Assembly (NCBI GenBank): GCA_048882505.1
Contig: JBHLRO010000005.1
Span: forward strand, 1-32,000
DNA: 32,000 nucleotides
From: Candidatus Thorarchaeota archaeon
Lineage (GTDB): Archaea > Asgardarchaeota > Heimdallarchaeia > Hodarchaeales > Hodarchaeaceae
Reading direction: 5' to 3'
Shown here piece by piece: positions 5,810-18,049 of the stretch. The position numbers were made by a program, and so were the translations under genes. The notes beneath the pieces are model-generated. The model was not told the origin of the DNA and made no database searches. It worked only from the letters and a program-made list of their open reading frames with translations. Each line of letters opens with the position of its first letter. Positions within the stretch are counted from its first letter, which is position 1.

Positions 5810-6265
5810 TCAATTTCTTTGAAGTCTCGATTTAATGATAAATTTTAAATGTCTCCCACCATGAGTGGCAAAAATTTCAAGATATTGATCTAACGTAAGG
5901 CTACCGATTTCAGGATGAACGAGAGTCCGAGTCCAAGCTTTTTCATCTAATTCGTTTAATACTGGGATAATGCGCTCATGCACTGAACGAATAATCGCCA
6001 AGGATACTTCGATATTCTGCTTATAGTCTGGGAGCTCCGCCCATGCAGATTCATCGTAAGCTTTGATAGTAGGATTCTCCTCGGTTAAGACCATCTTGAT
6101 TCGAATATAACTATTGAGGTGTGAATCAGCTATATGGTGCACAACCTGCCTTAGAGACCATGTTACGACCTTTTTATCTAATTCACCAGTTGGTAGGCCT
6201 TTAACTACGCTTTCTAATTCGGTGGGGAATGTTTCTATCATTTTAAGAAGTTTGGTTCTTTTCAT
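5810..6265 (-). CDS. DinB/YfiT-family metal-dependent protein (bacillithiol S-transferase-like)
   Basis: WSLRQVVHHIADSH, ENPTIKAYDESAWAELPD and HGGRH metal-ligand pattern. Start placed at ATG 6265 (MKRTK) with a GAGGT SD upstream, instead of the ORF-track start at 6358. Confidence 0.85.
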   Translation of the reverse strand: MKRTKLLKMIETFPTELESVVKGLPTGELDKKVVTWSLRQVVHHIADSHLNSYIRIKMVLTEENPTIKAYDESAWAELPDYKQNIEVSLAIIRSVHERIIPVLNELDEKAWTRTLVHPEIGSLTLDQYLEIFATHGGRHLKFIIKSRLQRN

Positions 6266-6956
6266 CCTTATACCTCGATCTGCTCTGAAATATTCAGGAC
6301 ACCTTCTTAAACCGCGAGGACACTGAAAAACAATGAACATAAGGCCAAATTCAAGCAATCATCGCTAAATAATATCCGATACTTGACTCTTAAGTATTCC
6401 AAGAAAACTTGCTTCTGAGAGGCCGCCATATTAGCTTAGACGTAAGAAAATATAAGTTCATGATCTACCAATCTGTACATAAGTAATCCCAGTTCAAATC
6501 CTCCATGAGACAAAAAAAAACCAGGTAACCGTCCCAATATAAACCCTAAAATCTCCTCCAAAGCTTTTTGATTATCAAAATCAAGTGGCCTTTAAGTGAT
6601 AGGGCTAAATTTTGAGTTTATTATAATGGTTTTATGGTACAGCTAGGCAGAAGAGAAGCATTTAAGTAATCCAGATTGATTAAGTTCATTGGACTACCCA
6701 AATCCCCGGATTGAAATGAAGTCCTATATTATCTCTGTCTGCAAAGATATTTTATCAAGTAAACATCTCAGGGTGGAGAATATTAATACTAAGATCCTTC
6801 TACCCAAAAGGATTACTTTCATTCATCCTCTTCTAGCGGAAAAAGAACAGTTACCTATTTTCCAGGTATTCTTATTTCAAAATAAAAGTGTATGAATGAC
6901 TAAACAGCTTCAGACATTGAGAGTTAAGTAAAACCCGAATCAAGAGAGAATGAATC

Positions 6957-8225
6957 ATGCCTGAACAACAAAGAGTATTTATAGCGGGCGGTAATACTAC
7001 CCCCTTTGATTATCCGCTTAATCTCCAAATCGAGGAAATGACAGCCAATGTTGTCCGCCAATTATACAAAGATGTACCTGAATTTCACCTCAGGGATGTA
7101 AGAGACCACGGAATGGTGGTATACTCCCATTTTTCAGTCCACTTCAGTCATCAATTGACCGCATACTGGGTTCTACACGACCATCTTGGCCTGGTCGGTG
7201 TTCCGCATTTTAGAATAGACAATGGTGGAAATACCGGTGGATCTGCCCTGTATGCCGCCTATGCCTTGATAAGAAGTGGGCTCGCGGATGTGGTCCCAGT
7301 AATCGGATATGAACTGATGGCTTCGGTCTCCCAATCTAAAGGAAGCGAATTCATCGCCATAGCTTCTGATACTAGATATGAAGCCATGTTAGGGGCAAAT
7401 TATACCAATTACTATGCAGGCTTAGCCCGGGTCTTTATGGAAAATCATAATCTTTCTGAAGAAGAATTTGCCGAAATTGCAGCGAAGAATAAGAACAATG
7501 CTATGGCGACAGGTGAAAAAACCCAACAATATCGTAGTGTGGGCCGAAAAGTTACAGTAGACGATGTAATGGACTCTCGACTCATAGCATACCCTCTGAA
7601 AAAACTTGACTGCTGTTTTATGTCCGAAGGGGCCGCTGTAGTATTGCTTTGTAATGAAAAATTTGCGAAACAATATAACCCCGATCATTACGTGGAAATC
7701 ACTGGTGTTGGCCTATCTTCGTGTACCATCCGCGCAGGAGATCGATATAATTTTCCTGGCTGGACCCAACGTTATGGTGAGGGATATCCTGGGCTTGGAG
7801 AATTCGGCGCCTGTCGTAGAGCCGCGGAATTAGCTTTCGATATGGCTGAAATCCCATGGAAGAACTCTTACAAACATTTGGATGTCGCTGAAGTCCATGA
7901 TGCCTTCTCAACATCTGAGGCCCAAATCTATAATGCGTTAGGCTGGTGTGAGTCAATGTCAGTCAAAGAGTTCATTCGTGATCGTCTTCCCATGATGGAA
8001 GGTGAAATTCCTACAAATCCTGGAGGGGGTTTGATTGGATACGGCCATCCCGTGGGAGCCACGGGCCTAATGAGCACCATAGAATGCTATTACCAATTAA
8101 CAGGACGGATTCCCAAGGAACACAAGTCTACAGACAACGAAGTCAAAGATGCAGAAGTAGGACTCGTTAATAGTCACGCTGGCACTGGAACCAGCATTTC
8201 AAATTTCGTACTACAAAGAGCTTGA
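6957..8225 (+). CDS. Thiolase-fold protein of SCP2/archaeal type lacking the catalytic cysteine
   Basis: 422 aa with DCCFMSEGAAVVLL, VAEVHDAF and NPGGGLIGYGHPVGATG motifs. The nucleophile loop reads DNGGNTG instead of xNCATG/ACASG. Confidence 0.9.
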   Translation: MPEQQRVFIAGGNTTPFDYPLNLQIEEMTANVVRQLYKDVPEFHLRDVRDHGMVVYSHFSVHFSHQLTAYWVLHDHLGLVGVPHFRIDNGGNTGGSALYAAYALIRSGLADVVPVIGYELMASVSQSKGSEFIAIASDTRYEAMLGANYTNYYAGLARVFMENHNLSEEEFAEIAAKNKNNAMATGEKTQQYRSVGRKVTVDDVMDSRLIAYPLKKLDCCFMSEGAAVVLLCNEKFAKQYNPDHYVEITGVGLSSCTIRAGDRYNFPGWTQRYGEGYPGLGEFGACRRAAELAFDMAEIPWKNSYKHLDVAEVHDAFSTSEAQIYNALGWCESMSVKEFIRDRLPMMEGEIPTNPGGGLIGYGHPVGATGLMSTIECYYQLTGRIPKEHKSTDNEVKDAEVGLVNSHAGTGTSISNFVLQRA

Positions 8226-8230
8226 GGTGA
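8224..8230 (+). promoter_or_regulatory. Shine-Dalgarno site for the DUF35 gene, overlapping the thiolase stop codon
   Basis: TGAGGTGA followed by taatt ATG (8236); suggests translational coupling. Confidence 0.7.
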
Positions 8231-8235
8231 TAATT

Positions 8236-8895
8236 ATGTCAGATCATTTACATCCGACTCCATTCAATAAGGATTTTCGATGGGATGCTTGGAAAGAAAT
8301 TTCTACATTGGTTCCTGAGAAGGGATGGACATGGCAAAACGTCCGAACGGGTACCGCTGGAGGGGTGGAGTGGGTCGAGCAGCAAATATATTTTGACATG
8401 TTGTATACATTCCGTTTAGGAGCTTTGAGTCCCTACGCTAAAGGTTTACTGGAGGGGAAACTCCTAGGTACGAAATGTCCAAATTGTGGTGATATCACGT
8501 TCCCTCCGAGAGTTAATTGCTGGAATCTTGATTGTGATCTAATAAAAATGGATTGGGTCGAAATGCCGAGAACTGGAACCCTTCACGCCTGGACAATATG
8601 TGGATTCGCTGCCAAAAGCGCCTTGAAGAAGTTGCCATTTGTTTTAGCCTATGTTCTGGTTGGAGACAGCAAAACTGCAATCGCAAATATACTACATATC
8701 GAAAAACCTTGGCACACCGAAACCGAAATGCCCGTAGTGGTAAAAATGGCACCGAAAGGGGAAAGAGTGGGGAATCTCATCGATTTTTGGTTTGAACCCG
8801 TGCCAGATTGGAAACCTAGTCCAATGAGTCCAGAAAAGGAACGCATCAAACAGCTGTGTGAACCAGTTTATGCGTGGGTCGCCCAGATGAAATAA
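8236..8895 (+). CDS. DUF35 (zinc-ribbon + OB-fold) thiolase partner protein with N-terminal extension
   Basis: GKLLGTKCPNCG..FPPRVNCWNLDC zinc ribbon followed by the OB region WVEMPRTGTLHAWT...PFVLAYV. Directly downstream of the thiolase-fold gene. ATG 8236 chosen by SD spacing. Confidence 0.85.
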   Translation: MSDHLHPTPFNKDFRWDAWKEISTLVPEKGWTWQNVRTGTAGGVEWVEQQIYFDMLYTFRLGALSPYAKGLLEGKLLGTKCPNCGDITFPPRVNCWNLDCDLIKMDWVEMPRTGTLHAWTICGFAAKSALKKLPFVLAYVLVGDSKTAIANILHIEKPWHTETEMPVVVKMAPKGERVGNLIDFWFEPVPDWKPSPMSPEKERIKQLCEPVYAWVAQMK

Positions 8896-9281: not shown

Positions 9282-11636
9282 TCATACGAACGAGGGAGAC
9301 TGTTTTGAGAGAAATTCCCCCTTCTTGTTTCCTAGGACTCTAGATTCAAACTCATTATAATAAGCTTCGAGCTTAGAGTCAACGCTAGGAAAGCAGTCCT
9401 TTAGTGCACTCTCAAAATGCTCAAACATGATGACACGTTGGTTAAAATCCGTTCGCAGTGCGCTCATCACAGCTTCCCGACATAAGTTCTCCAGATCGGC
9501 CCCAGAATATCCAGCTGTTCTTTCTGAAAGTGAATCAAGCAGGTGATCACGTTCACCTTGAAATGGAATTTTCCTTGAGTGAATATCTAGGATTTCTCGA
9601 CGTCCTGCTTGATCTGGGGAGGGAATTAGAATTAGCTTATCTAACCTGCCTGGCCTAAGCAATGCCAAATCAAGGGCGCCTGGTCTGTTTGTGGCGCCTA
9701 TAACAAAGATATCCTGTGTATCTTCTATCCCATCCAAGAGAGTGAGGAGCTGATTTACCGTTGCATCAATCTCTCGGCCGCCATCTGATTCGTCCCCTCC
9801 TCGGCGGGGAACCATTGCATCAATTTCATCAAAAAATAGAATACAGGGCGCCAGTTTTTTTGCCTTACTAAACAGTTCTCGAACAATTCGGGCAGATTCT
9901 CCAAACCAAACAGATAACAGTTCTGGACCCTTGATTGAGATGAAAGAGGCCTCAAGTTCCGTGGCAATCGCCCTCGCCAGCAGCGTTTTCCCATTACCAG
10001 GTGGCCCATAGAGAAGGATTCCTCTAGGAGGGGTGACACCCATCTCCTTCAAAACCTGTGGCTGATGAAATTGCCATTCAAGTTGTTCTTGCAGGAGATG
10101 TTTGATTTCAGTAAGCCCTCCAATATCATTCCAATGAACATTGGGTTTTAATATGCGAGAATGGACCGTACGAAGCGCAGATGGCTCTACAGTTCGAAAA
10201 GCTTCTTCAAAGTCCTCACGGGCTACTTTGATTTCCAACATCACAGTTGGTGGAATCGAGGTTCCCCAGAGATTAATTAATTCCGCATATCGAGCAACGC
10301 AGCGCATGCAGGCCTCTTTGACAAGAGCAGCAATGTCCGTTCCTACATATCCAGTCATTCTGCTTATGTAAGACCTCAAATAATCTTCGGTAACATCATT
10401 TTCAAGTGGAACAGTTCGTAAATGAATATTAAGTATCTCCTCACGCTCTTGTTCTGATGGAACATTGCATTCCACTTCGATATCAAAGCGCCCTGGCCGG
10501 CGTACAATAGGATCGATATCATCAGCTGACTTACAGGCTCCTACAACAAATGCTCTGGTTCCTTTGAGAGTGTCCAGTCCCAACGCAAACTGGATTGAAA
10601 ACCTACGTACGTATTCTGGCAGGTTTAAATTTGGTGCAGGCGTTAGAGTATCCAGATCATCCAATATTAGTAGAGCTGGACTTTTCTGAGCGGTTTTTTG
10701 GACATCAGCAAAGAGCGTCCGGATATTCTTCTCGGTGGGCCCTACACCTGCAAAGAGGTTGGAAGGAATTCGAAATATTCGTGCGCCAGATTGGGCCATT
10801 TCAGCTGCCAATGTATCCAGTAGTAGGGTCTTACCCACCCCAGATCCACCAACAAGAAGAATTCCATGCGGAGGACTTATATTTATTGCACTAAAGACCT
10901 CAGGTCTTCTGATAGGCGTAATAACCAACTTCCTTAATCGTCGGATTACAGGTTTGAGACCTCCGATGCTCTCCCAAGAAATAGCCTCCAACTCTTTAGA
11001 ACTGGGAATAAAGGTTTTGCTAAGCTGAAACTTAGTGGTTTTAGGATTAATAATAACAATTCCATCTGGACTTGTCGCTTTAATAAATAGGGTTTCCTTT
11101 TTGAATGTATAACCAGCTAGATTAATTTGGAGTCCCGAGGACACGGGTTGGTTTTTTAACTGGTTTCTTAATTGTACCAGAAGTAAGTGGCGTTCCGCAT
11201 CATCAAGCTTCTTTGGGTCTCGTCCAACGAGAGTTACATGAACTATTTTAGCAATCGCAGGTTTCAATATTGTATCAACTTCGACGAGGTCTCCAAGAGA
11301 AAGACCTAAGGATTGCCTTACCTCCCCGTCCAATCTCGCGGTAAAAATACTCTCGCGATCTATTTCCGAATACCCCTGAAACCGACGACCTCGTGGCCTC
11401 GGAAGATCATCTTCAGAACTTTTCTTTTGTTTCTTCTCCCTTTCCAAGGGTGGTATCGACTGCTCGACCATAGGCACATCTGGTTTAACAATGACCCCGA
11501 ACCGCTTATCCTTGTGAATAACCTCAATAACTGTTTCGTCTTCCACACCAAGAATTACAAGTGCCTCTGGTGGTAAACGGATTATTCTTTTGCCAAAATC
11601 TTCAGTTTGGGGTTCTGCTAGTTCACAAGCAACCAT
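9282..11636 (-). CDS. cdc48: CDC48/VCP-type double-ring AAA+ ATPase, paralogue A (degenerate D1, intact D2)
   Basis: 784 aa. N-domain EDFGKRIIRL...RLDGEVRQSLGLSLGDLVEV. D1: GGSGVGKT, LILDDLD, RRPGRFD. D2: GPPGNGKT, FFDEID, GATNRP, RPGRLD. GGTGGT SD upstream. Confidence 0.92.
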   Translation of the reverse strand: MVACELAEPQTEDFGKRIIRLPPEALVILGVEDETVIEVIHKDKRFGVIVKPDVPMVEQSIPPLEREKKQKKSSEDDLPRPRGRRFQGYSEIDRESIFTARLDGEVRQSLGLSLGDLVEVDTILKPAIAKIVHVTLVGRDPKKLDDAERHLLLVQLRNQLKNQPVSSGLQINLAGYTFKKETLFIKATSPDGIVIINPKTTKFQLSKTFIPSSKELEAISWESIGGLKPVIRRLRKLVITPIRRPEVFSAINISPPHGILLVGGSGVGKTLLLDTLAAEMAQSGARIFRIPSNLFAGVGPTEKNIRTLFADVQKTAQKSPALLILDDLDTLTPAPNLNLPEYVRRFSIQFALGLDTLKGTRAFVVGACKSADDIDPIVRRPGRFDIEVECNVPSEQEREEILNIHLRTVPLENDVTEDYLRSYISRMTGYVGTDIAALVKEACMRCVARYAELINLWGTSIPPTVMLEIKVAREDFEEAFRTVEPSALRTVHSRILKPNVHWNDIGGLTEIKHLLQEQLEWQFHQPQVLKEMGVTPPRGILLYGPPGNGKTLLARAIATELEASFISIKGPELLSVWFGESARIVRELFSKAKKLAPCILFFDEIDAMVPRRGGDESDGGREIDATVNQLLTLLDGIEDTQDIFVIGATNRPGALDLALLRPGRLDKLILIPSPDQAGRREILDIHSRKIPFQGERDHLLDSLSERTAGYSGADLENLCREAVMSALRTDFNQRVIMFEHFESALKDCFPSVDSKLEAYYNEFESRVLGNKKGEFLSKQSPSFV

Positions 11637-11653
11637 TTCGATACCACCATTTC

Positions 11654-13924
11654 CTACACGAACGTCCTTTCTTCATTTGAATAGTCCGAAATTCGGTGTC
11701 TTTTCATCGCCTGTACCTCTACCTCGAAATATTTAACTATATTCTCGTTAATGCTCGGTCGACACTTGGCCATCGCAACATCAAAGTCTTTAAAAGAAAG
11801 GGATCGCGATGTGAAATCACGACGTAATCCAGCAAAGGCGGCCTCTCTACAAAGGTTTTCAATATCAGCTCCTGTGAAGTTTTCAGTCGATTTAGCAAGC
11901 TTCTTCAAGTCCACTGTGTCATCCAGATCCATATGACGAGTGTGTACCTCAAGGATCTTTAATCGGTTTTCCATATCTGGAATAGGGACATAAATCAGCC
12001 TGTCCAAGCGACCAGGACGGAGTAACGCTGGATCTATGGCGTTAGGTCTATTGGTAGCACCGATTACATATACGCCAGTCAGTTTTTCCATTCCATCGAG
12101 AGACGCTAGTAACTGGTTAATGATTCTGTCCCTTTCTCTTGATGAATCGGTAAATCCTCCTCCTCTTTTTCCGGCAAGAGCATCTAGCTCGTCAAAGAAA
12201 ATGATACACGGGGCCAGTTGGCGTGCTCTTTGAAATAACTCTCTTACCATCCTCGCTGACTCTGAGAACCATTTAGACAATAATTCAGGTCCTCGTACAA
12301 CTAGGAAATTCGCTTGAATCTCATTGGCAAGGGCTTTGGCAATTAGGGTCTTACCAGTTCCTGGAGGGCCATATAATAGAGCTCCTCGCGGCATTCGAAT
12401 ATTCATCTCTTGAAACACCTCAGGTTTCCGTATGGGCCATTCCACCATTTCTCGCAGTGACTGTTTAACATCTTCCAGTCCGCCCACATCCTTCCATGAA
12501 ACCAATGGAATCGATGTTGTAATTTCTCGCGTTGCTGACGGTTTTACTTCTGTTAAGGCGGTCAAAAGATCCTCCTGAGATAAGTGGATTTCAATACCAT
12601 GAGCCTTGGGATTAACCTCACTCTCCTCGCTTGAGACCTGAGCAATTTCTGGCTCCAATAAGTTCTGTCGCTCTAAAGCGTGCATGCCTGCCATTTTTAT
12701 TAGGAATTCTAGATCTGCGGGAGTGTACCCGCCGGTGTTCTTTGCTATGTCTTCTAGGTCAAGTTCCTTAGCGGGAATACCTCTAACGTGAGTTTTTAGG
12801 ATTTCCAGACGATCAAGATAATTCGGGATTGGTACTGCGATTTCAATCTCAAATCTACCTGGTACTCTTAGAGCCGGGTGAACACTATCGGCATCAGTTG
12901 TCGTAGCAATAACAATAACTTTTCGGCCACGGATGATTTTATCTAAGTTCTGAATCAGACTCATTGTTGTACGTCGTTCAAGGTCCGATAGGTGCCGACT
13001 AGGAGCCGGCGCAAGAGCTTCGACCTGATCGATAACGATCACTGCGGGTTCGTACTTGATAACATAGTCAAAATACTTGTTGACATCCTTCTCAGTTGTC
13101 CAATATCCTCTAATCATCTCAGTTGCCATGATGAAAAATCGGGTAACTCCTGATTCGCAAGAAAGAGCCCGACTTAAATGACTTTTTCCAACCCCCAATG
13201 GACCTGTAAGCAAAATTCCCTGTGCAGGTTGGATATTAAGCATTTCGAAAACCTCTGGATATCTTAACGGTAGTTCAACCAGATTTCTTAGCCGTGAAAT
13301 TAACTCAGAATGCCCTCCTACTTCGTCCCACATGACAAAGCGGTCCAGTTCATCATCTACTAGTTCCTTGGGTATTTCATTAGATATACGAACGTCCGTT
13401 TCTGGAACGATTCTTACTATCCCTGAGGGAGTTGTCGATAAAATTGCCACTTTGAGGTCCTTACCTCCGAGCAGTCGCCGAAGTTCAATTGTCTGCCCTC
13501 TAGTCACTGGTCGATTGAGCAAATACTCAATGAAAACTTTATCCTTATCTTCCATGCTGAATGTGCTTATCAGTACCTTCTTAGCTTCAGGACAAGCAGT
13601 TTTATCCAGGAAAACTTTCTGACCAATTCCTACGCCGAGGTTTGCTCGAAGGAATCCATTCAAGTGCAGAATGAGATCCCCTGTCTTACGAATTGACCGT
13701 TGAGGGGAAGGGTAGAGAGGTACTTCCGGTAGTTGGGATGGAGAACTAATTTCCTCCAGAGGTTTCAACAGGATCCCTACTTTCCTGTCTCCACTGACGA
13801 CTTCCACGACCTCTCCTTCTCTGATATCAAAATCATCAAAACGCTTTTGTGGAATTCGTCCTATATTTTTGCCGTAATCATCTTGGAAACCGTCAGCTAC
13901 CGTTGCAATAACCACTGTTGTCAC
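11654..13924 (-). CDS. cdc48: CDC48/VCP-type double-ring AAA+ ATPase, paralogue B (degenerate D1, intact D2)
   Basis: 756 aa as tracked. D1: GPLGVGKS, IVIDQVE, LRVPGRFE. D2: GPPGTGKT, FFDELD, GATNRP, RPGRLD. The true start may be GTG 13915 (MVIATVAD), which aligns with paralogue A (MVACELAE) and has an AGGTG SD. Confidence 0.92.
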   Translation of the reverse strand: MTTVVIATVADGFQDDYGKNIGRIPQKRFDDFDIREGEVVEVVSGDRKVGILLKPLEEISSPSQLPEVPLYPSPQRSIRKTGDLILHLNGFLRANLGVGIGQKVFLDKTACPEAKKVLISTFSMEDKDKVFIEYLLNRPVTRGQTIELRRLLGGKDLKVAILSTTPSGIVRIVPETDVRISNEIPKELVDDELDRFVMWDEVGGHSELISRLRNLVELPLRYPEVFEMLNIQPAQGILLTGPLGVGKSHLSRALSCESGVTRFFIMATEMIRGYWTTEKDVNKYFDYVIKYEPAVIVIDQVEALAPAPSRHLSDLERRTTMSLIQNLDKIIRGRKVIVIATTTDADSVHPALRVPGRFEIEIAVPIPNYLDRLEILKTHVRGIPAKELDLEDIAKNTGGYTPADLEFLIKMAGMHALERQNLLEPEIAQVSSEESEVNPKAHGIEIHLSQEDLLTALTEVKPSATREITTSIPLVSWKDVGGLEDVKQSLREMVEWPIRKPEVFQEMNIRMPRGALLYGPPGTGKTLIAKALANEIQANFLVVRGPELLSKWFSESARMVRELFQRARQLAPCIIFFDELDALAGKRGGGFTDSSRERDRIINQLLASLDGMEKLTGVYVIGATNRPNAIDPALLRPGRLDRLIYVPIPDMENRLKILEVHTRHMDLDDTVDLKKLAKSTENFTGADIENLCREAAFAGLRRDFTSRSLSFKDFDVAMAKCRPSINENIVKYFEVEVQAMKRHRISDYSNEERTFV

Positions 13925-14086
13925 CTAACAGATAGGATTCCTCATTCTTGCGTCTCAGTATAAGTTGTGGTTGTGGAAAGATCAGATATATATTAACGTA
14001 CGCAGACTATAATCAAAGCGAAATCAGGTTTTTCGAACTGAAGAGGTGCCTGGGTTCGCTAACGGATTATAAAATCTAAAACCAGG

Positions 14087-14222: not shown

Positions 14223-15578
14223 TCAATCTTGAGAACTAACTCTCGCCACAAAAATAAGAGTACCGACAATTAAACTTAATATAACGCCCCCTAGAAAGAT
14301 CAACAGTTCGATTCCTGGATTGGGGTTTGACCAGGAGACAAAAGCGATAAGTAGATTCAACCCTGAAAGAGATCCAAAGAGCGCTGTCAATAAATTAAGG
14401 CGGCGAGTCATCCTTTTCTCTTGATCTAGGGCCAACAAGTTCATTTTGCCTCGAATATACGATGTTGCGCCTTCAACACTTCTTTCGACACTCCTCGCAA
14501 AGTCCAGCCAGGAATTGATTAACTCCAAATTAAACTGGGGCATTAACTTCTGAACAAGAGGATCCGATAACAAAGGGACTACGGGGCTCAGATGGCCTTG
14601 CATGGAGGAGAGGGTAGGTTTAATTTTGAGGAACTGTTCTTGAATGTCCTGAATATTATCCAAAAGCTCACTAAGCCTTGAAACAGTTAAATGAGGATTG
14701 ATGACCCTCATTTCGCTAGTGATAACTGACAAGTCACTTAATATATTGTCCAGAGTAGGTTTGATTGTCTCCCATTGAATCATAAGCCCTTTTTGCATAA
14801 TGAGGGTCTCGTTAATTTTTTGAAACGAGAGGGCTGGGATATGCTCTTGGCCCATGTTCACGATACATTTTTCATCAGCATAGGTACTTTCATAATCTGG
14901 CGCAAGAATATCTATAATCATGTTCTCTTCCGTTTCGAAACCCAAGTAATAGGAGGCATAATAGGACATCTTTTCATATCCCGCGTTCGAACTTACCGCG
15001 AAGAACTCTGGGGGATCCATTTGAAAATTAGTACTCAGCCACTCGAGAACATCTCGAAACAATTCCCGTAATTGAGAAAAAACCGTTGCCCCAGCTCGGG
15101 ACGGAAATCCAGCTAAACCAAAAACCAGGGGATCACGTAAGAATGAAATATTCATATCTAAAGGCCAGAAATTGTGTCTAATTGTGCAAATCCAATTTAT
15201 ATGGTGAGTAAAACTGATTTCAATCGTCCATCCGTGTTTCCACTCGTAAAGCAGGCCAAGCTGCTTAGTCGGGACTTTCTCAAGCCTAAATGCCGATCGT
15301 AAGATTTCTTCTGTAATTGCGGTTCTAAGGGGAATTACGATCTGAAATCCCGCCATAAAAACACTCCCCTCATTCCAATGTGTTAGCATGGATTCTAAAC
15401 CATGCTCAACAAAGATGCCACAGGATGGACAACAACTATAGCCAGTATGAACACGTTGGGGACAGGTATCCACGGAACCCAACGACTTGGCCACCTCACA
15501 TCTCATACAACAATGTAAAAAGTCAGGGTCGTTGTTGAGTTTCAATCCATGATTCCGAGAGAGATCGTCAAGTTTCAT
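14223..15578 (-). CDS. Uncharacterised two-TM membrane protein with CorA/DUF155-like layout and Cys/His-rich N-terminus
   Basis: 451 aa: CCxxC...C...H...CCxxC...H N-terminus, mixed alpha/beta middle, long helices, stalk ending QEKRMTRRLNLLT, then two hydrophobic helices. No GMN motif. Confidence 0.5.
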   Translation of the reverse strand: MKLDDLSRNHGLKLNNDPDFLHCCMRCEVAKSLGSVDTCPQRVHTGYSCCPSCGIFVEHGLESMLTHWNEGSVFMAGFQIVIPLRTAITEEILRSAFRLEKVPTKQLGLLYEWKHGWTIEISFTHHINWICTIRHNFWPLDMNISFLRDPLVFGLAGFPSRAGATVFSQLRELFRDVLEWLSTNFQMDPPEFFAVSSNAGYEKMSYYASYYLGFETEENMIIDILAPDYESTYADEKCIVNMGQEHIPALSFQKINETLIMQKGLMIQWETIKPTLDNILSDLSVITSEMRVINPHLTVSRLSELLDNIQDIQEQFLKIKPTLSSMQGHLSPVVPLLSDPLVQKLMPQFNLELINSWLDFARSVERSVEGATSYIRGKMNLLALDQEKRMTRRLNLLTALFGSLSGLNLLIAFVSWSNPNPGIELLIFLGGVILSLIVGTLIFVARVSSQD

Positions 15579-17428: not shown

Positions 17429-18049
17429 CTATTTTCGGAACACTGGCACATGAAAGGTAAGGTTTGCATTGTACATAAATCGTGCTAGACTCTTTCTTAA
17501 ATTATTGGCGGTTAGTAAGGAAACACAGAAGAAAGGGGAATTCACCGCCGAATTTAAGTGATCATTCTCATGGAACCTCTGCCTTAAAGCATCACTTGAA
17601 TAATTTCGAAGGTCAGTTTTATTCCCAAAAATGCCCTGATAGATCCCATCCACTGTTAGCCGCGCCATTACACCTTTGTACAAATCCATTCCTTCAGCTA
17701 TACTCTGGTCAGCTGATACATCGACAAGAAAAATAATGGCAGTCGCACCATGAGTCATTGGGCTCCATTCTTCGTAAGAAAGCTCGTTTTCTATGATATT
17801 AATCGCTCGGAGTAGTGTATTATCCACTCTTACCTGTTCAATAGGTCTACTAGGAGCCATGGGGGCATTTTTATAGAAGATTCCTGAGTAGAGTCGATAA
17901 AGTAGAGAGGTTTTTCCAGAATTGGGTGTACCCAGAATTATTAAAGCGGGCCATTTTTCAGCTTCTTCGTAGGGGATGTCCATACCACCTGGAATAACTA
18001 TCAAAAAAACCTTTGATTCTTTCATACTAGTTTTAACAGGAGATCTCAA
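17429..18049 (-). CDS. Small GTP-binding protein, Arf-like, with degenerate G3 motif
   Basis: G1 GTPNSGKTS, IIFLVD strand, G4 FGNKTD, G5-like VSLLT. G3 DxxG is replaced by NIIEN. Start codon uncertain. Confidence 0.75.
   Translation of the reverse strand: MRSPVKTSMKESKVFLIVIPGGMDIPYEEAEKWPALIILGTPNSGKTSLLYRLYSGIFYKNAPMAPSRPIEQVRVDNTLLRAINIIENELSYEEWSPMTHGATAIIFLVDVSADQSIAEGMDLYKGVMARLTVDGIYQGIFGNKTDLRNYSSDALRQRFHENDHLNSAVNSPFFCVSLLTANNLRKSLARFMYNANLTFHVPVFRK

What the first reader, a model, noticed from the sequence alone, without database searches (positions are those of the whole stretch)
9282..13924. Tandem CDC48 paralogues, both with crippled D1 and intact D2: candidate archaeal heterohexameric unfoldase with Pex1/Pex6-like logic
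Seen: two full-length CDC48-type genes, co-oriented and 17 bp apart. In paralogue A, D1 Walker B is LILDD (10656-10661, catalytic Glu to Asp), sensor-1 ATN becomes ACK and the pore loop is FAGVG. In paralogue B, D1 Walker B is IVIDQ (13025-13030, the classic hydrolysis-dead E-to-Q change), sensor-1 is ATT and the Arg-finger segment is LRVPGR instead of LRRPGR. D2 in both retains Walker A, DE, ATN, RPGR and an aromatic WF pore loop. Established: canonical p97/VAT is a homohexamer with a conserved D1, whereas Pex1/Pex6 is a heterohexamer with degenerate D1 and active D2, and AFG2A/AFG2B (SPATA5/SPATA5L1) is another heteromeric paralogue pair. Inference: these co-transcribed, independently degenerated paralogues may assemble together, giving an archaeal parallel or precursor of heteromeric CDC48-like machines.
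Basis: partly seen in the sequence, partly recalled or inferred. Interest (0 to 1): 0.85.

Follow-up and report, generated by a model that had tools for sequence, protein, structure and literature searches.

The report
Paired Cdc48 genes, inactive first ring
Two adjacent copies of the protein-unfolding motor Cdc48 in a Hodarchaeales (Asgard) archaeon are always inherited together, have each lost the ATP-splitting residues of their first ring, and carry a matching charge swap where they would touch, so they probably build one mixed ring: an independent archaeal parallel to the mixed AAA rings of eukaryotes, not their ancestor.

Summary
Two co-oriented CDC48/VAT-type genes lie 17 nt apart: B at 11654-13924 (upstream) and A at 9282-11636, both on the minus strand. 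Both keep the D1 Walker A motif but lack the D1 catalytic Glu (B has DQ, A has DD) and the sensor-1 Asn. B also lacks one Arg finger. D2 is canonical in both. None of 192 canonical archaeal CDC48s shows any of these changes.

A and B are sister paralogues found only in Hodarchaeales. They occur in 7 of 22 species of the window's own genus, in 0 of 61 other genomes of the class, and in several metagenome contigs. The order is always B then A, with spacers of -1 to 17 nt in 11 of 12 loci. Their trees mirror each other, and D1 is under purifying selection.

New evidence for co-assembly is a charge swap. Canonical CDC48 has Arg (lid) facing Glu (neighbour) in D1. All 20 B proteins have Glu at the lid position and all 20 A proteins have Lys or His at the neighbour position, while the reciprocal positions are neutral. 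The pair is therefore satisfied only at a B:A interface.

A mixed ring is likely (about 0.6) but unproven. The pair is a lineage-specific, convergent analogue of Pex1/Pex6, not a precursor. I found no description of it in the papers searched.

The parts
11654..13924 (-). Gene B (756 aa, GTG start): upstream CDC48/VAT-type paralogue with N domain, D1 (inactive) and D2 (active)
   Evidence: TIGR01243 632 bits (cut-off 802.65), two PF00004, CDC48_2 hit
9282..11636 (-). Gene A (784 aa, ATG start): downstream CDC48/VAT-type paralogue with N domain, D1 (inactive) and D2 (active)
   Evidence: TIGR01243 581 bits; N-domain fold matches p97-N
11637..11653 (-). 17-nt spacer GAAATGGTGGTATCGAA with a GGTGGT Shine-Dalgarno-like element before the A start codon
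   Evidence: in relatives the spacer is 17, 0, 0, 0, 3, -1, 8, -1, 1 and 0 nt
13181..13204 (-). B D1 Walker A GPLGVGKS (intact P-loop)
   Evidence: GxxGxGK[TS] in all B orthologues
13025..13042 (-). B D1 Walker B VIVIDQ; the DQ codons are 13025-13030 (catalytic Glu replaced by Gln)
   Evidence: DQ in all B orthologues except P0135, which has DE
12896..12907 (-). B D1 sensor-1 segment ATTT (Asn replaced by Thr)
12854..12871 (-). B D1 Arg-finger segment LRVPGR (the middle Arg of the canonical RRxGR is Val)
   Evidence: canonical RR..R in 192/192
13100..13111 (-). B D1 pore loop RGYW (family consensus KGWW, aromatic pair kept)
12671..12673 (-). B Glu418 in the D1 lid: charge-swapped partner (canonical Arg)
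   Evidence: Glu in 20/20 B; Arg in 181/193 canonical
10929..10931 (-). A Lys236 before the D1 Walker A: charge-swapped partner (canonical Glu)
   Evidence: Lys 18 and His 2 of 20 A; Glu in 193/193 canonical
10827..10850 (-). A D1 Walker A GGSGVGKT (intact P-loop)
10740..10754 (-). A D1 pore loop FAGVG (no aromatic residue at the canonical Phe/Tyr position)
10656..10670 (-). A D1 Walker B LILDD; the DD codons are 10656-10661 (Glu replaced by Asp; Asn in most orthologues)
10530..10541 (-). A D1 sensor-1 segment GACK (Asn replaced by Cys, invariant in the A family)
10488..10502 (-). A D1 Arg fingers RRPGR (intact); in the model they sit on B's nucleotide pocket
11361..11480 (-). Disordered, variable insert (residues 53-92) in A's N domain, ending in the conserved LPxPxGxxF motif
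9819..10007 (-). A D2 catalytic core: Walker A GPPGNGKT, pore loop VWFGES, Walker B FFDEID
12182..12370 (-). B D2 catalytic core: Walker A GPPGTGKT, pore loop KWFSES, Walker B FFDELD
9285..9293 (-). A C-terminal tripeptide S-F-V (penultimate aromatic residue)
   Evidence: penultimate Tyr/Phe in 19/20 A
11657..11665 (-). B C-terminal tripeptide T-F-V (penultimate aromatic residue)
   Evidence: penultimate Phe/Tyr in 18/18 B
13987..13996 (-). TTAATATATA, a TATA-box-like element 63-72 nt upstream of the B start; possible promoter of the two-gene unit (unverified)
   Evidence: read from the sequence only

Best explanation
A and B are sister paralogues of the archaeal CDC48/VAT unfoldase. They arose by one duplication within Hodarchaeales and have since been kept as a two-gene, translationally coupled operon in the order B then A. 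Shown: both keep a p97-type N domain, a D1 with an intact P-loop but no hydrolysis residues, and a fully canonical D2. Inferred: D1 binds ATP without turning it over and serves as a permanent assembly ring, while D2 is the motor that threads substrate. Inferred: the two proteins co-assemble into one mixed double ring, most simply alternating A3B3. In that ring A's intact Arg fingers close over B's Walker-B-Gln (ATP-trapping) site. This B:A interface is held by a Glu(B lid)-Lys(A) pair that replaces the canonical Arg-Glu pair. Speculative: the C-terminal x-[FY]-x tails dock the ring on the 20S proteasome or on another partner. The arrangement works like Pex1/Pex6 (mixed ring, silent D1, active D2), but it evolved independently.
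For: (1) The pairing is constant. B then A is adjacent in the window and in 6 genus-mates. The one apparent 'B only' genome has A residues 1-203 running into a scaffold gap. The pairing recurs in metagenome contigs L057, L060-62, L063 and L064, and with one gene between in L059. No orphan copy was found. (2) The spacers between the B stop and the A start are 17, 17, 0, 0, 0, 3, -1, 8, -1, 1 and 0 nt. (3) In the tree, A is 100/100, B is 100/100, A+B is 100/97, and the two subtrees share the same branching order. (4) Both share derived D2 motifs: W-F..ESA and RPGRLD, against canonical W-V..ESE and RPGRFD. (5) D1 is constrained, not decaying: dN/dS is 0.045 for A D1 and 0.055 for B D1, and within-family D1 identity is 0.63-0.65. 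(6) The degeneration is asymmetric: A keeps both Arg fingers but lost the aromatic pore residue, and B keeps KGWW but lost one Arg finger. (7) There is a charge swap. At the modelled contact B418-A236, canonical CDC48 has Arg (181/193) and Glu (193/193). B has Glu in 20/20 and A has Lys or His in 20/20, whereas A's own lid position is Ser/Ala/Gly in 18 of 20 (Arg in 2) and B's own trans position is Thr/Ser/Asn/Ala. The equivalent D2 pair stays Arg/Glu in all A and B. (8) The complex model of B-D1 + A-D1 + ATP supports binding: score 0.64, best of 3 controls 0.00. That mark was reached by 58 of 80 solved complexes and 2 of 110 mismatched pairs. The runs agree in at least 71% of contacts and partner pLDDT is at least 82. 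A's Arg-finger loop lies on B's Walker A, Walker B and sensor-1. Because AAA rings are solved many times over, this pass shows likeness and cannot separate hetero- from homo-oligomers.
Against: There is no experimental or direct evidence of co-assembly. The charge-swap argument rests on one modelled contact, chosen after inspecting about 40 contacts. A second canonical salt-bridge pair (B410/A254 columns) shows no clean pattern. The homo-interfaces would lack the salt bridge but are not repulsive, so A6 and B6 are not excluded. A related single-gene clade in another family of the same class ('S', genus g6) also has a dead D1 (Walker B DN) without any partner gene, so a dead D1 does not require a hetero-partner. 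In contig L059 the two genes are separated by an opposite-strand gene. Fifteen of 22 genus-mates, some 96-99% complete, lack the pair, so it is dispensable. The C-termini do not fit the strict HbYX pattern [LVIMGAPFYW][FY]x (PMC3493965).
Confidence: 0.6

Rival explanations
1. A and B form two separate homohexamers. They are co-expressed because they act in the same pathway or on related substrates, for example with different N-domain specificities, but they do not mix.
For: Known archaeal CDC48/VAT structures are homohexamers: VAT entries 5g4f and 5vc7 hold six identical chains. The single-gene S clade shows that a dead-D1 CDC48 can exist alone. The D2 interface residues remain canonical in both, so self-association is not excluded. 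The N domains differ strongly (24% identity).
Against: This reading does not explain why Glu in B and Lys in A are invariant at positions that would meet only across paralogues, while the reciprocal positions went neutral. It also does not explain the near-universal stop/start overlap or the absence of any orphan copy.
Confidence: 0.28
2. One or both proteins are regulatory pseudo-enzymes that mix into, or cap, rings of the four canonical CDC48 paralogues of the same genome.
For: The genome encodes four CDC48s above the TIGR01243 cut-off. D2 interface residues and motifs in A and B are canonical.
Against: D2 in both A and B keeps every catalytic motif and is under strong purifying selection, so neither is a pseudo-enzyme. 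The D1 interface has diverged from the canonical one at the Arg/Glu pair. A and B are absent from most genus-mates that still have the canonical paralogues.
Confidence: 0.07
3. The pair is an evolutionary precursor or orthologue of a eukaryotic heteromeric pair such as Pex1/Pex6 or AFG2A/AFG2B.
For: The host is a Hodarchaeales archaeon (source names; taxonomy), a lineage often placed next to eukaryotes. The functional logic is the same: silent D1, active D2, two paralogues.
Against: A and B are sisters from a lineage-specific duplication. The pair is restricted to 7 of 22 species of one genus among 83 genomes of the class. Only two 50%-identity clusters of A exist among 1.84 billion representatives. 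The ranking against solved eukaryotic paralogues is the same as for the ordinary CDC48 of the genome, and no Pex1/Pex6 appears in the best 60. Published trees keep all archaeal sequences apart from the eukaryotic family members (PMC5070193).
Confidence: 0.03

Closest known systems
Archaeal CDC48/VAT (Thermoplasma VAT; NCBIfam TIGR01243)
   Same: Same domain order: p97-type N domain, D1 with lid, D2 with lid. VAT is the best solved-structure match for both proteins (598 and 588 bits). D2 motifs are canonical, and the penultimate residue is aromatic as in many archaeal CDC48s.
   Different: Both score below the family cut-off (581 and 632 against 802.65). D1 lacks the catalytic Glu and the sensor-1 Asn, and B lacks one Arg finger; all are present in 192/192 canonical members. 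The genes are encoded as an obligate pair. They evolve about three times faster than the canonical paralogue of the same genomes (55-66% against 82-88% identity).
Pex1/Pex6 peroxisomal heterohexamer
   Same: Two type II AAA paralogues, a hydrolytically silent D1 ring and an active D2 ring (as described in PMC5070193). The inferred alternating ring is the same idea.
   Different: The two systems are not orthologous. In Pex1/Pex6 the D1 Walker A and B motifs and the Arg fingers are all severely degenerated (PMC5070193). Here the P-loops are intact and A keeps both Arg fingers, so D1 most likely still binds ATP. Heteromeric assembly is proven for Pex1/Pex6 and only inferred here.
AFG2A/AFG2B (SPATA5/SPATA5L1) of the 55LCC complex
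   Same: These are Cdc48-family paralogues that sit together in one solved particle: entries 8rhn and 9lgo hold both chains.
   Different: There is no special sequence affinity. A and B score against AFG2A and AFG2B in the same proportion as the genome's ordinary CDC48 does. The origin is an independent duplication.
Non-hydrolysing assembly rings of type II AAA proteins (NSF D2; p97 D1 with Walker B Glu-to-Gln)
   Same: An intact P-loop with a disabled Walker B Glu is the classic ATP-trapping, ring-stabilising state. This rests on general knowledge of AAA+ enzymology, not on a test here.
   Different: Here the trap is natural, fixed over the whole B family, and combined with a second paralogue that supplies the Arg fingers.
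Single-gene dead-D1 CDC48 clade 'S' of another family of the same class (loci L047-L049)
   Same: It groups with A+B outside the canonical CDC48 clan (100/100). Its D1 Walker B is DN, its D1 pore loop has no aromatic residue, and its D2 is canonical.
   Different: It is a single gene with no partner. It keeps the canonical D2 W-V..ESE and RPGRFD motifs, and two of three members keep the canonical trans Glu.

Membership tests
CDC48/VAT family (TIGR01243) | N domain of the p97/VAT type (double-psi barrel plus beta-clam) | tested here: met
   A: the model of residues 1-225 (pLDDT 80) matches p97-N with Foldseek E 2e-11 and TMt 0.82. B: PF02933 CDC48_2 at 1.2e-9, and the TIGR01243 alignment starts at profile position 5.
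CDC48/VAT family (TIGR01243) | Two tandem classical AAA modules, each with an AAA lid | tested here: met
   PF00004 twice and PF17862 twice in both proteins.
CDC48/VAT family (TIGR01243) | Score above the curated family cut-off (802.65 bits) | tested here: not met
   A 580.8 bits and B 632.3 bits. Four other genes of the same genome score 877-1082 bits.
CDC48/VAT family (TIGR01243) | Catalytically complete D1 (Walker B DE, sensor-1 Asn, two Arg fingers) | tested here: not met
   A: DD, Cys, RR kept. B: DQ, Thr, one Arg lost. Canonical members have all three in 192/192.
CDC48/VAT family (TIGR01243) | Catalytically complete D2 with an aromatic pore loop | tested here: met
   GPPGxGKT, W-F, FFDE[IL]D, GATNRP and LRPGRLD in both proteins and in all orthologues.
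CDC48/VAT family (TIGR01243) | Placement inside the canonical CDC48 clan in a tree | tested here: not met
   A+B+S lie on the other side of a 100/100 branch from 38 canonical sequences. Long-branch effects cannot be excluded.
Pex1/Pex6 | Orthology to the eukaryotic peroxins | tested here: not met
   No Pex1/Pex6 chain appears among the best 60 solved-structure matches of A or B. A and B are sisters from a Hodarchaeales-specific duplication. No eukaryote-inclusive tree could be built here.
Pex1/Pex6 | D1 Walker A and Walker B both degenerate (no nucleotide-binding signature) | tested here: not met
   Walker A GxxGxGK[TS] is intact in all A and B. Pex1/Pex6 D1 is described as severely degenerated in PMC5070193.
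Pex1/Pex6 | Alternating heterohexamer | not testable with these tools
   Only indirect support is available: operon coupling, the charge swap and a two-domain model.
AFG2A/AFG2B (SPATA5/SPATA5L1) | Orthology of A and B to the two eukaryotic partners | tested here: not met
   Bit scores to AFG2A and AFG2B scale as for the genome's ordinary CDC48: A 437/369, B 477/362, canonical 629/469.
HbYX proteasome-activating ATPases | C-terminus matching [LVIMGAPFYW][FY]x (definition in PMC3493965) | tested here: inconclusive
   The penultimate residue is Tyr/Phe in 19/20 A and 18/18 B, against 97/193 canonical. The third-last residue is mostly Ser/Thr in A and Glu in B, which is off the pattern.

The most novel reading that the evidence does not exclude
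A and B form an obligate alternating A3B3 double ring. This would be the first heteromeric Cdc48-type unfoldase known outside eukaryotes. Its ATP-locked D1 ring is held together by a paralogue-specific, charge-swapped interface. It would have evolved independently in the archaeal order closest to eukaryotes, giving a two-gene natural experiment on how homomeric AAA rings become heteromeric.
Probability: 0.5. Interest if true: 0.72.

Novelty: new variant of a known kind. Interest (0 to 1): 0.6.

Why it matters
Eukaryotes turned many homomeric archaeal rings into fixed heteromeric ones: Rpt1-6, Mcm2-7, CCT, Pex1/Pex6 and AFG2A/B. How such rings become dependent on several paralogues is mostly reconstructed after the fact. 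Here is a young, simple two-gene case in Asgard archaea with a clear candidate molecular signature: an Arg-Glu interface pair turned into Glu-Lys split over the two paralogues, and complementary loss of the Arg finger and the pore-loop aromatic residue. Both proteins should be expressible in E. coli, so the idea can be tested directly by co-purification, cryo-EM and a pair of point mutations. Its reach is limited. The pair is confined to part of one genus, it is dispensable, and it is not the ancestor of any eukaryotic machine.

Tried and rejected
(1) A eukaryote-inclusive type II AAA tree (p97, Pex1, Pex6, AFG2A/B, NVL, NSF) could not be built, because no tool supplies eukaryotic sequences as references. 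I used bit-score ranking against solved structures instead.

(2) The 'B without A' case in genome G015 was rejected. A's first 203 residues follow B and run into a 100-N scaffold gap.

(3) P0242, the second-best hit of the A-D1 profile, is not an A orthologue. It is a 1019-aa CDC48 with three canonical AAA modules whose score is summed.

(4) An anti-phage defence reading was rejected. PADLOC gives only generic AAA similarity (IetA, TRIP13) to D2.

(5) Conserved neighbours were rejected as partners. The 451-aa upstream gene and the 96-aa downstream ORF have no family hits, and the upstream gene recurs only in the 93%-identical relative. A thiolase/DUF35 pair recurs next to A in five loci but is convergently oriented and looks metabolic.

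(6) A species tree from the canonical C2-type CDC48 was too poorly resolved to tell one origin with losses from patchy transfer.

(7) A second canonical salt-bridge pair at the modelled interface (B410/A254 columns) gave no clean paralogue-specific pattern.

(8) The complex model cannot compare A:B with A:A or B:B, because only one job is allowed and 1000 residues is too few for a ring.

(9) Four literature searches found no description of this pair.
Full report
OBSERVATION. The window carries two minus-strand ORFs. B is at 11654-13924 (756 aa, GTG start) and A is at 9282-11636 (784 aa), separated by 17 nt. Both contain two PF00004 AAA modules with lids, and both align along their whole length to NCBIfam TIGR01243 (CDC48). 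Their scores, 632 and 581 bits, are below the 802.65-bit cut-off. They are 36% identical to each other.

A's Walker B 'DD' is GATGAT at 10656-10661. B's 'DQ' is GATCAG at 13025-13030. A's N-terminal 225 residues fold with pLDDT 80 into a p97-type N domain (Foldseek E 2e-11, TMt 0.82). A disordered insert at residues 53-92 interrupts it. B's N domain is recognised directly (CDC48_2, 1.2e-9).

NOT CHANCE. I aligned 193 canonical CDC48 proteins collected from the two homology searches, plus the genome's own four canonical copies. All 192 with residues at these columns have D1 Walker B DE, sensor-1 Asn and the three arginines of the Arg-finger segment. A and B break this in family-specific and conserved ways.
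- About 20 A-type proteins: Walker A kept, Walker B [DE][ND], sensor-1 Cys, RRxGR kept, pore loop F-A-G-[VI]-G.
- About 18 B-type proteins: Walker A kept, Walker B DQ (one deep member, P0135, still has DE), sensor-1 Thr, the middle Arg replaced by Val/Ala/Thr/Ile, pore loop K-G-W-W.

D2 is canonical in all of them. D1 is not decaying. Between the window and its 93%-identical relative, dN/dS is 0.045 for A D1 and 0.055 for B D1, as low as for D2.

WHO HAS IT. Names attached by public sources to the orthologues are Candidatus Hodarchaeales, Hodarchaeota and Heimdallarchaeota, and one is Candidatus Hodarchaeum mangrovi. The window's genome (4.3 Mb, 83 contigs, 94.6% complete) has four canonical CDC48 genes above cut-off in addition to this pair.

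B's N-D1 finds orthologues in 7 of 22 species of the window's genus and in none of 61 other genomes of the class. A profile of A's D1 run against 1.84 billion representative proteins finds only two true A clusters before scores fall to the generic CDC48 level. The pair is therefore rare, lineage-specific and dispensable. Genus-mates that are 96-99% complete lack it.

THE PAIR IS A UNIT. In the window, six genus-mates and four metagenome contigs, the order is always B then A. In one contig a single opposite-strand gene lies between them. The one genome that seemed to have B alone has the first 203 residues of A directly after B, cut off by a scaffold gap.

The distance from the B stop to the A start is 17, 17, 0, 0, 0, 3, -1, 8, -1, 1 and 0 nt. 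In the window the spacer holds a GGTGGT Shine-Dalgarno-like element. Flanking genes are not conserved, apart from a convergently oriented thiolase/DUF35 pair in five loci.

ORIGIN. In a careful maximum-likelihood tree (61 sequences, LG+C20), A is monophyletic (100/100) and so is B (100/100). A+B lie together on one side of a branch (100/97). The two subtrees show the same branching order for the same genomes. A and B also share derived D2 motifs that canonical proteins lack: W-F..ESA and RPGRLD. So they are sisters from one duplication, not descendants of two different CDC48 paralogues.

A single-gene clade ('S') from another family of the class joins them outside the canonical clan (100/100). 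It also has a dead D1 (Walker B DN). The changes at sensor-1, the Arg finger and the pore loop clearly arose after the duplication. Whether the Walker B Glu was already lost before it is ambiguous: S and A have Asn, B has Gln, and one deep B has Glu.

A and B evolve about three times faster than the canonical paralogue of the same genomes: 55-66% against 82-88% identity.

RELATION TO EUKARYOTIC MACHINES. Against all solved structures, both proteins rank VAT (598 and 588 bits) above p97/Cdc48 (about 505 and 532). Next come AFG2A/Drg1, NVL, AFG2B and Rix7. No Pex1 or Pex6 chain appears in the best 60. The genome's ordinary CDC48 gives the same order with proportionally higher scores. There is thus no special affinity to any eukaryotic heteromeric paralogue.

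A published family tree also keeps all archaeal sequences apart from the eukaryotic members. It describes Pex1/Pex6 D1 as having lost Walker A, Walker B and the Arg fingers (PMC5070193). Here the P-loops are intact. The resemblance to Pex1/Pex6 is functional and convergent, and only partial.

DO THEY CO-ASSEMBLE? This is the core inference and remains unproven, but three lines now point the same way.

First, the operon evidence above.

Second, a model of B-D1 with A-D1 and ATP supports binding.
- The score is 0.64 and the best of 3 controls is 0.00.
- That mark was reached by 58 of 80 solved complexes and 2 of 110 mismatched pairs.
- The runs agree in at least 71% of contacts, and partner pLDDT is at least 82.
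- The model places A's Arg-finger loop (A379-383) on B's Walker A, Walker B and sensor-1.
- Many AAA rings have been solved, so this pass shows likeness. It cannot distinguish hetero- from homo-oligomers.

Third, and most specific, is what the modelled contacts reveal when read against the alignments. At the contact B418 (D1 lid, 'cis' side) to A236 (helix before Walker A, 'trans' side), canonical CDC48 has Arg (181/193) facing Glu (193/193).
- All 20 B proteins have Glu at the lid position.
- All 20 A proteins have Lys (18) or His (2) at the trans position.
- A's own lid position is Ser/Ala/Gly in 18 of 20 (Arg in 2), and B's own trans position is Thr/Ser/Asn/Ala.
- In every one of 16 genome-matched pairs the combination is acidic in B and basic in A.

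The swapped pair can therefore meet only at a B(cis):A(trans) interface. The equivalent D2 pair remains Arg/Glu in all A and B.

In that interface A's intact Arg fingers meet B's Walker-B-Gln site, the classic ATP-trapping configuration (general AAA+ knowledge, not tested here). The complementary losses fit the same picture: A lost the pore-loop aromatic residue and B lost an Arg finger.

CAVEATS.
- The charge swap rests on one modelled contact found after inspecting about 40.
- A second canonical salt-bridge pair shows no clean pattern.
- Homo-interfaces would lack the bridge but are not repulsive.
- The single-gene S clade shows that a dead D1 does not by itself need a partner.
- Function beyond 'D2-driven unfoldase' is open.
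- Both tails keep a penultimate Tyr/Phe (19/20 and 18/18, against 97/193 in canonical proteins). However, the third-last residue (Ser/Thr in A, Glu in B) is off the HbYX pattern used for archaeal proteasomal ATPases (PMC3493965). Proteasome docking is therefore only a possibility.

VERDICT.
- Conserved, coupled pair of dead-D1 CDC48 sister paralogues: certain.
- Mixed ring: likely (about 0.6).
- Convergent parallel of Pex1/Pex6: yes.
- Precursor of eukaryotic machines: no.

I found no description of the pair in the papers searched or in earlier notes of this scan on other DNA. I class it as a new variant of a known kind, of moderate to high interest because it is cheap to test.

Noticed in passing
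L047:5156-7525, L048:7020-9326, L049:1206-3572: A single-gene CDC48 clade ('S') occurs in another family of the same class. Its D1 Walker B is DN, its D1 pore loop has no aromatic residue, its Arg-finger segment is altered (RRADR) and its D2 is canonical. It groups with A+B outside canonical CDC48 (100/100). This is a second, partner-less dead-D1 lineage.
   Followed up: partly
window 11373-11408 (A residues 77-88): Inside the disordered, variable insert of A's N domain there is a short conserved motif, LPxPxGxxF (Pro79, Pro81 and Gly83 invariant, Phe86 nearly so, in 16 orthologues). It looks like a short linear docking motif. Its partner is unknown.
   Followed up: no
P0242 (1019 aa, metagenome protein): This is a CDC48 with a CDC48_N domain followed by three complete canonical AAA modules instead of two.
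   Followed up: partly
G007:C9:113320-114471 and G002:C36:55056-56207; P0090, P0206: One canonical CDC48 paralogue of some genus-mates lies in a 1241-aa open frame. Related database proteins of 1271-1318 aa carry intein and LAGLIDADG Pfam hits, so CDC48 in this group probably contains an intein.
   Followed up: no
window 17429-18049; L060:972-1562; L063:9797-11794: An Arf-family small GTPase gene lies within about 4 kb of the B-A pair in three otherwise different loci. In L063 it is a 665-aa Arf plus Gtr1/RagA protein directly downstream of A. This may be chance, given how many small GTPases Asgard genomes encode.
   Followed up: no
window 6957-8895; L041, L043, L044, L064: A thiolase-fold gene and a DUF35 (zf-ChsH2/OB) gene sit next to A, convergently oriented, in five loci. 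This is the only recurrent neighbour of the pair.
   Followed up: partly
window 5810-6358; L057:5546-5995; L058:28-477: A DinB_2-family gene lies directly upstream of B in the deepest-branching pair (L057/L058), and about 3 kb from A in the window.
   Followed up: no
window 14223-15578: The 451-aa gene upstream of B has no Pfam or PADLOC hit and recurs next to the pair only in the 93%-identical relative.
   Followed up: no
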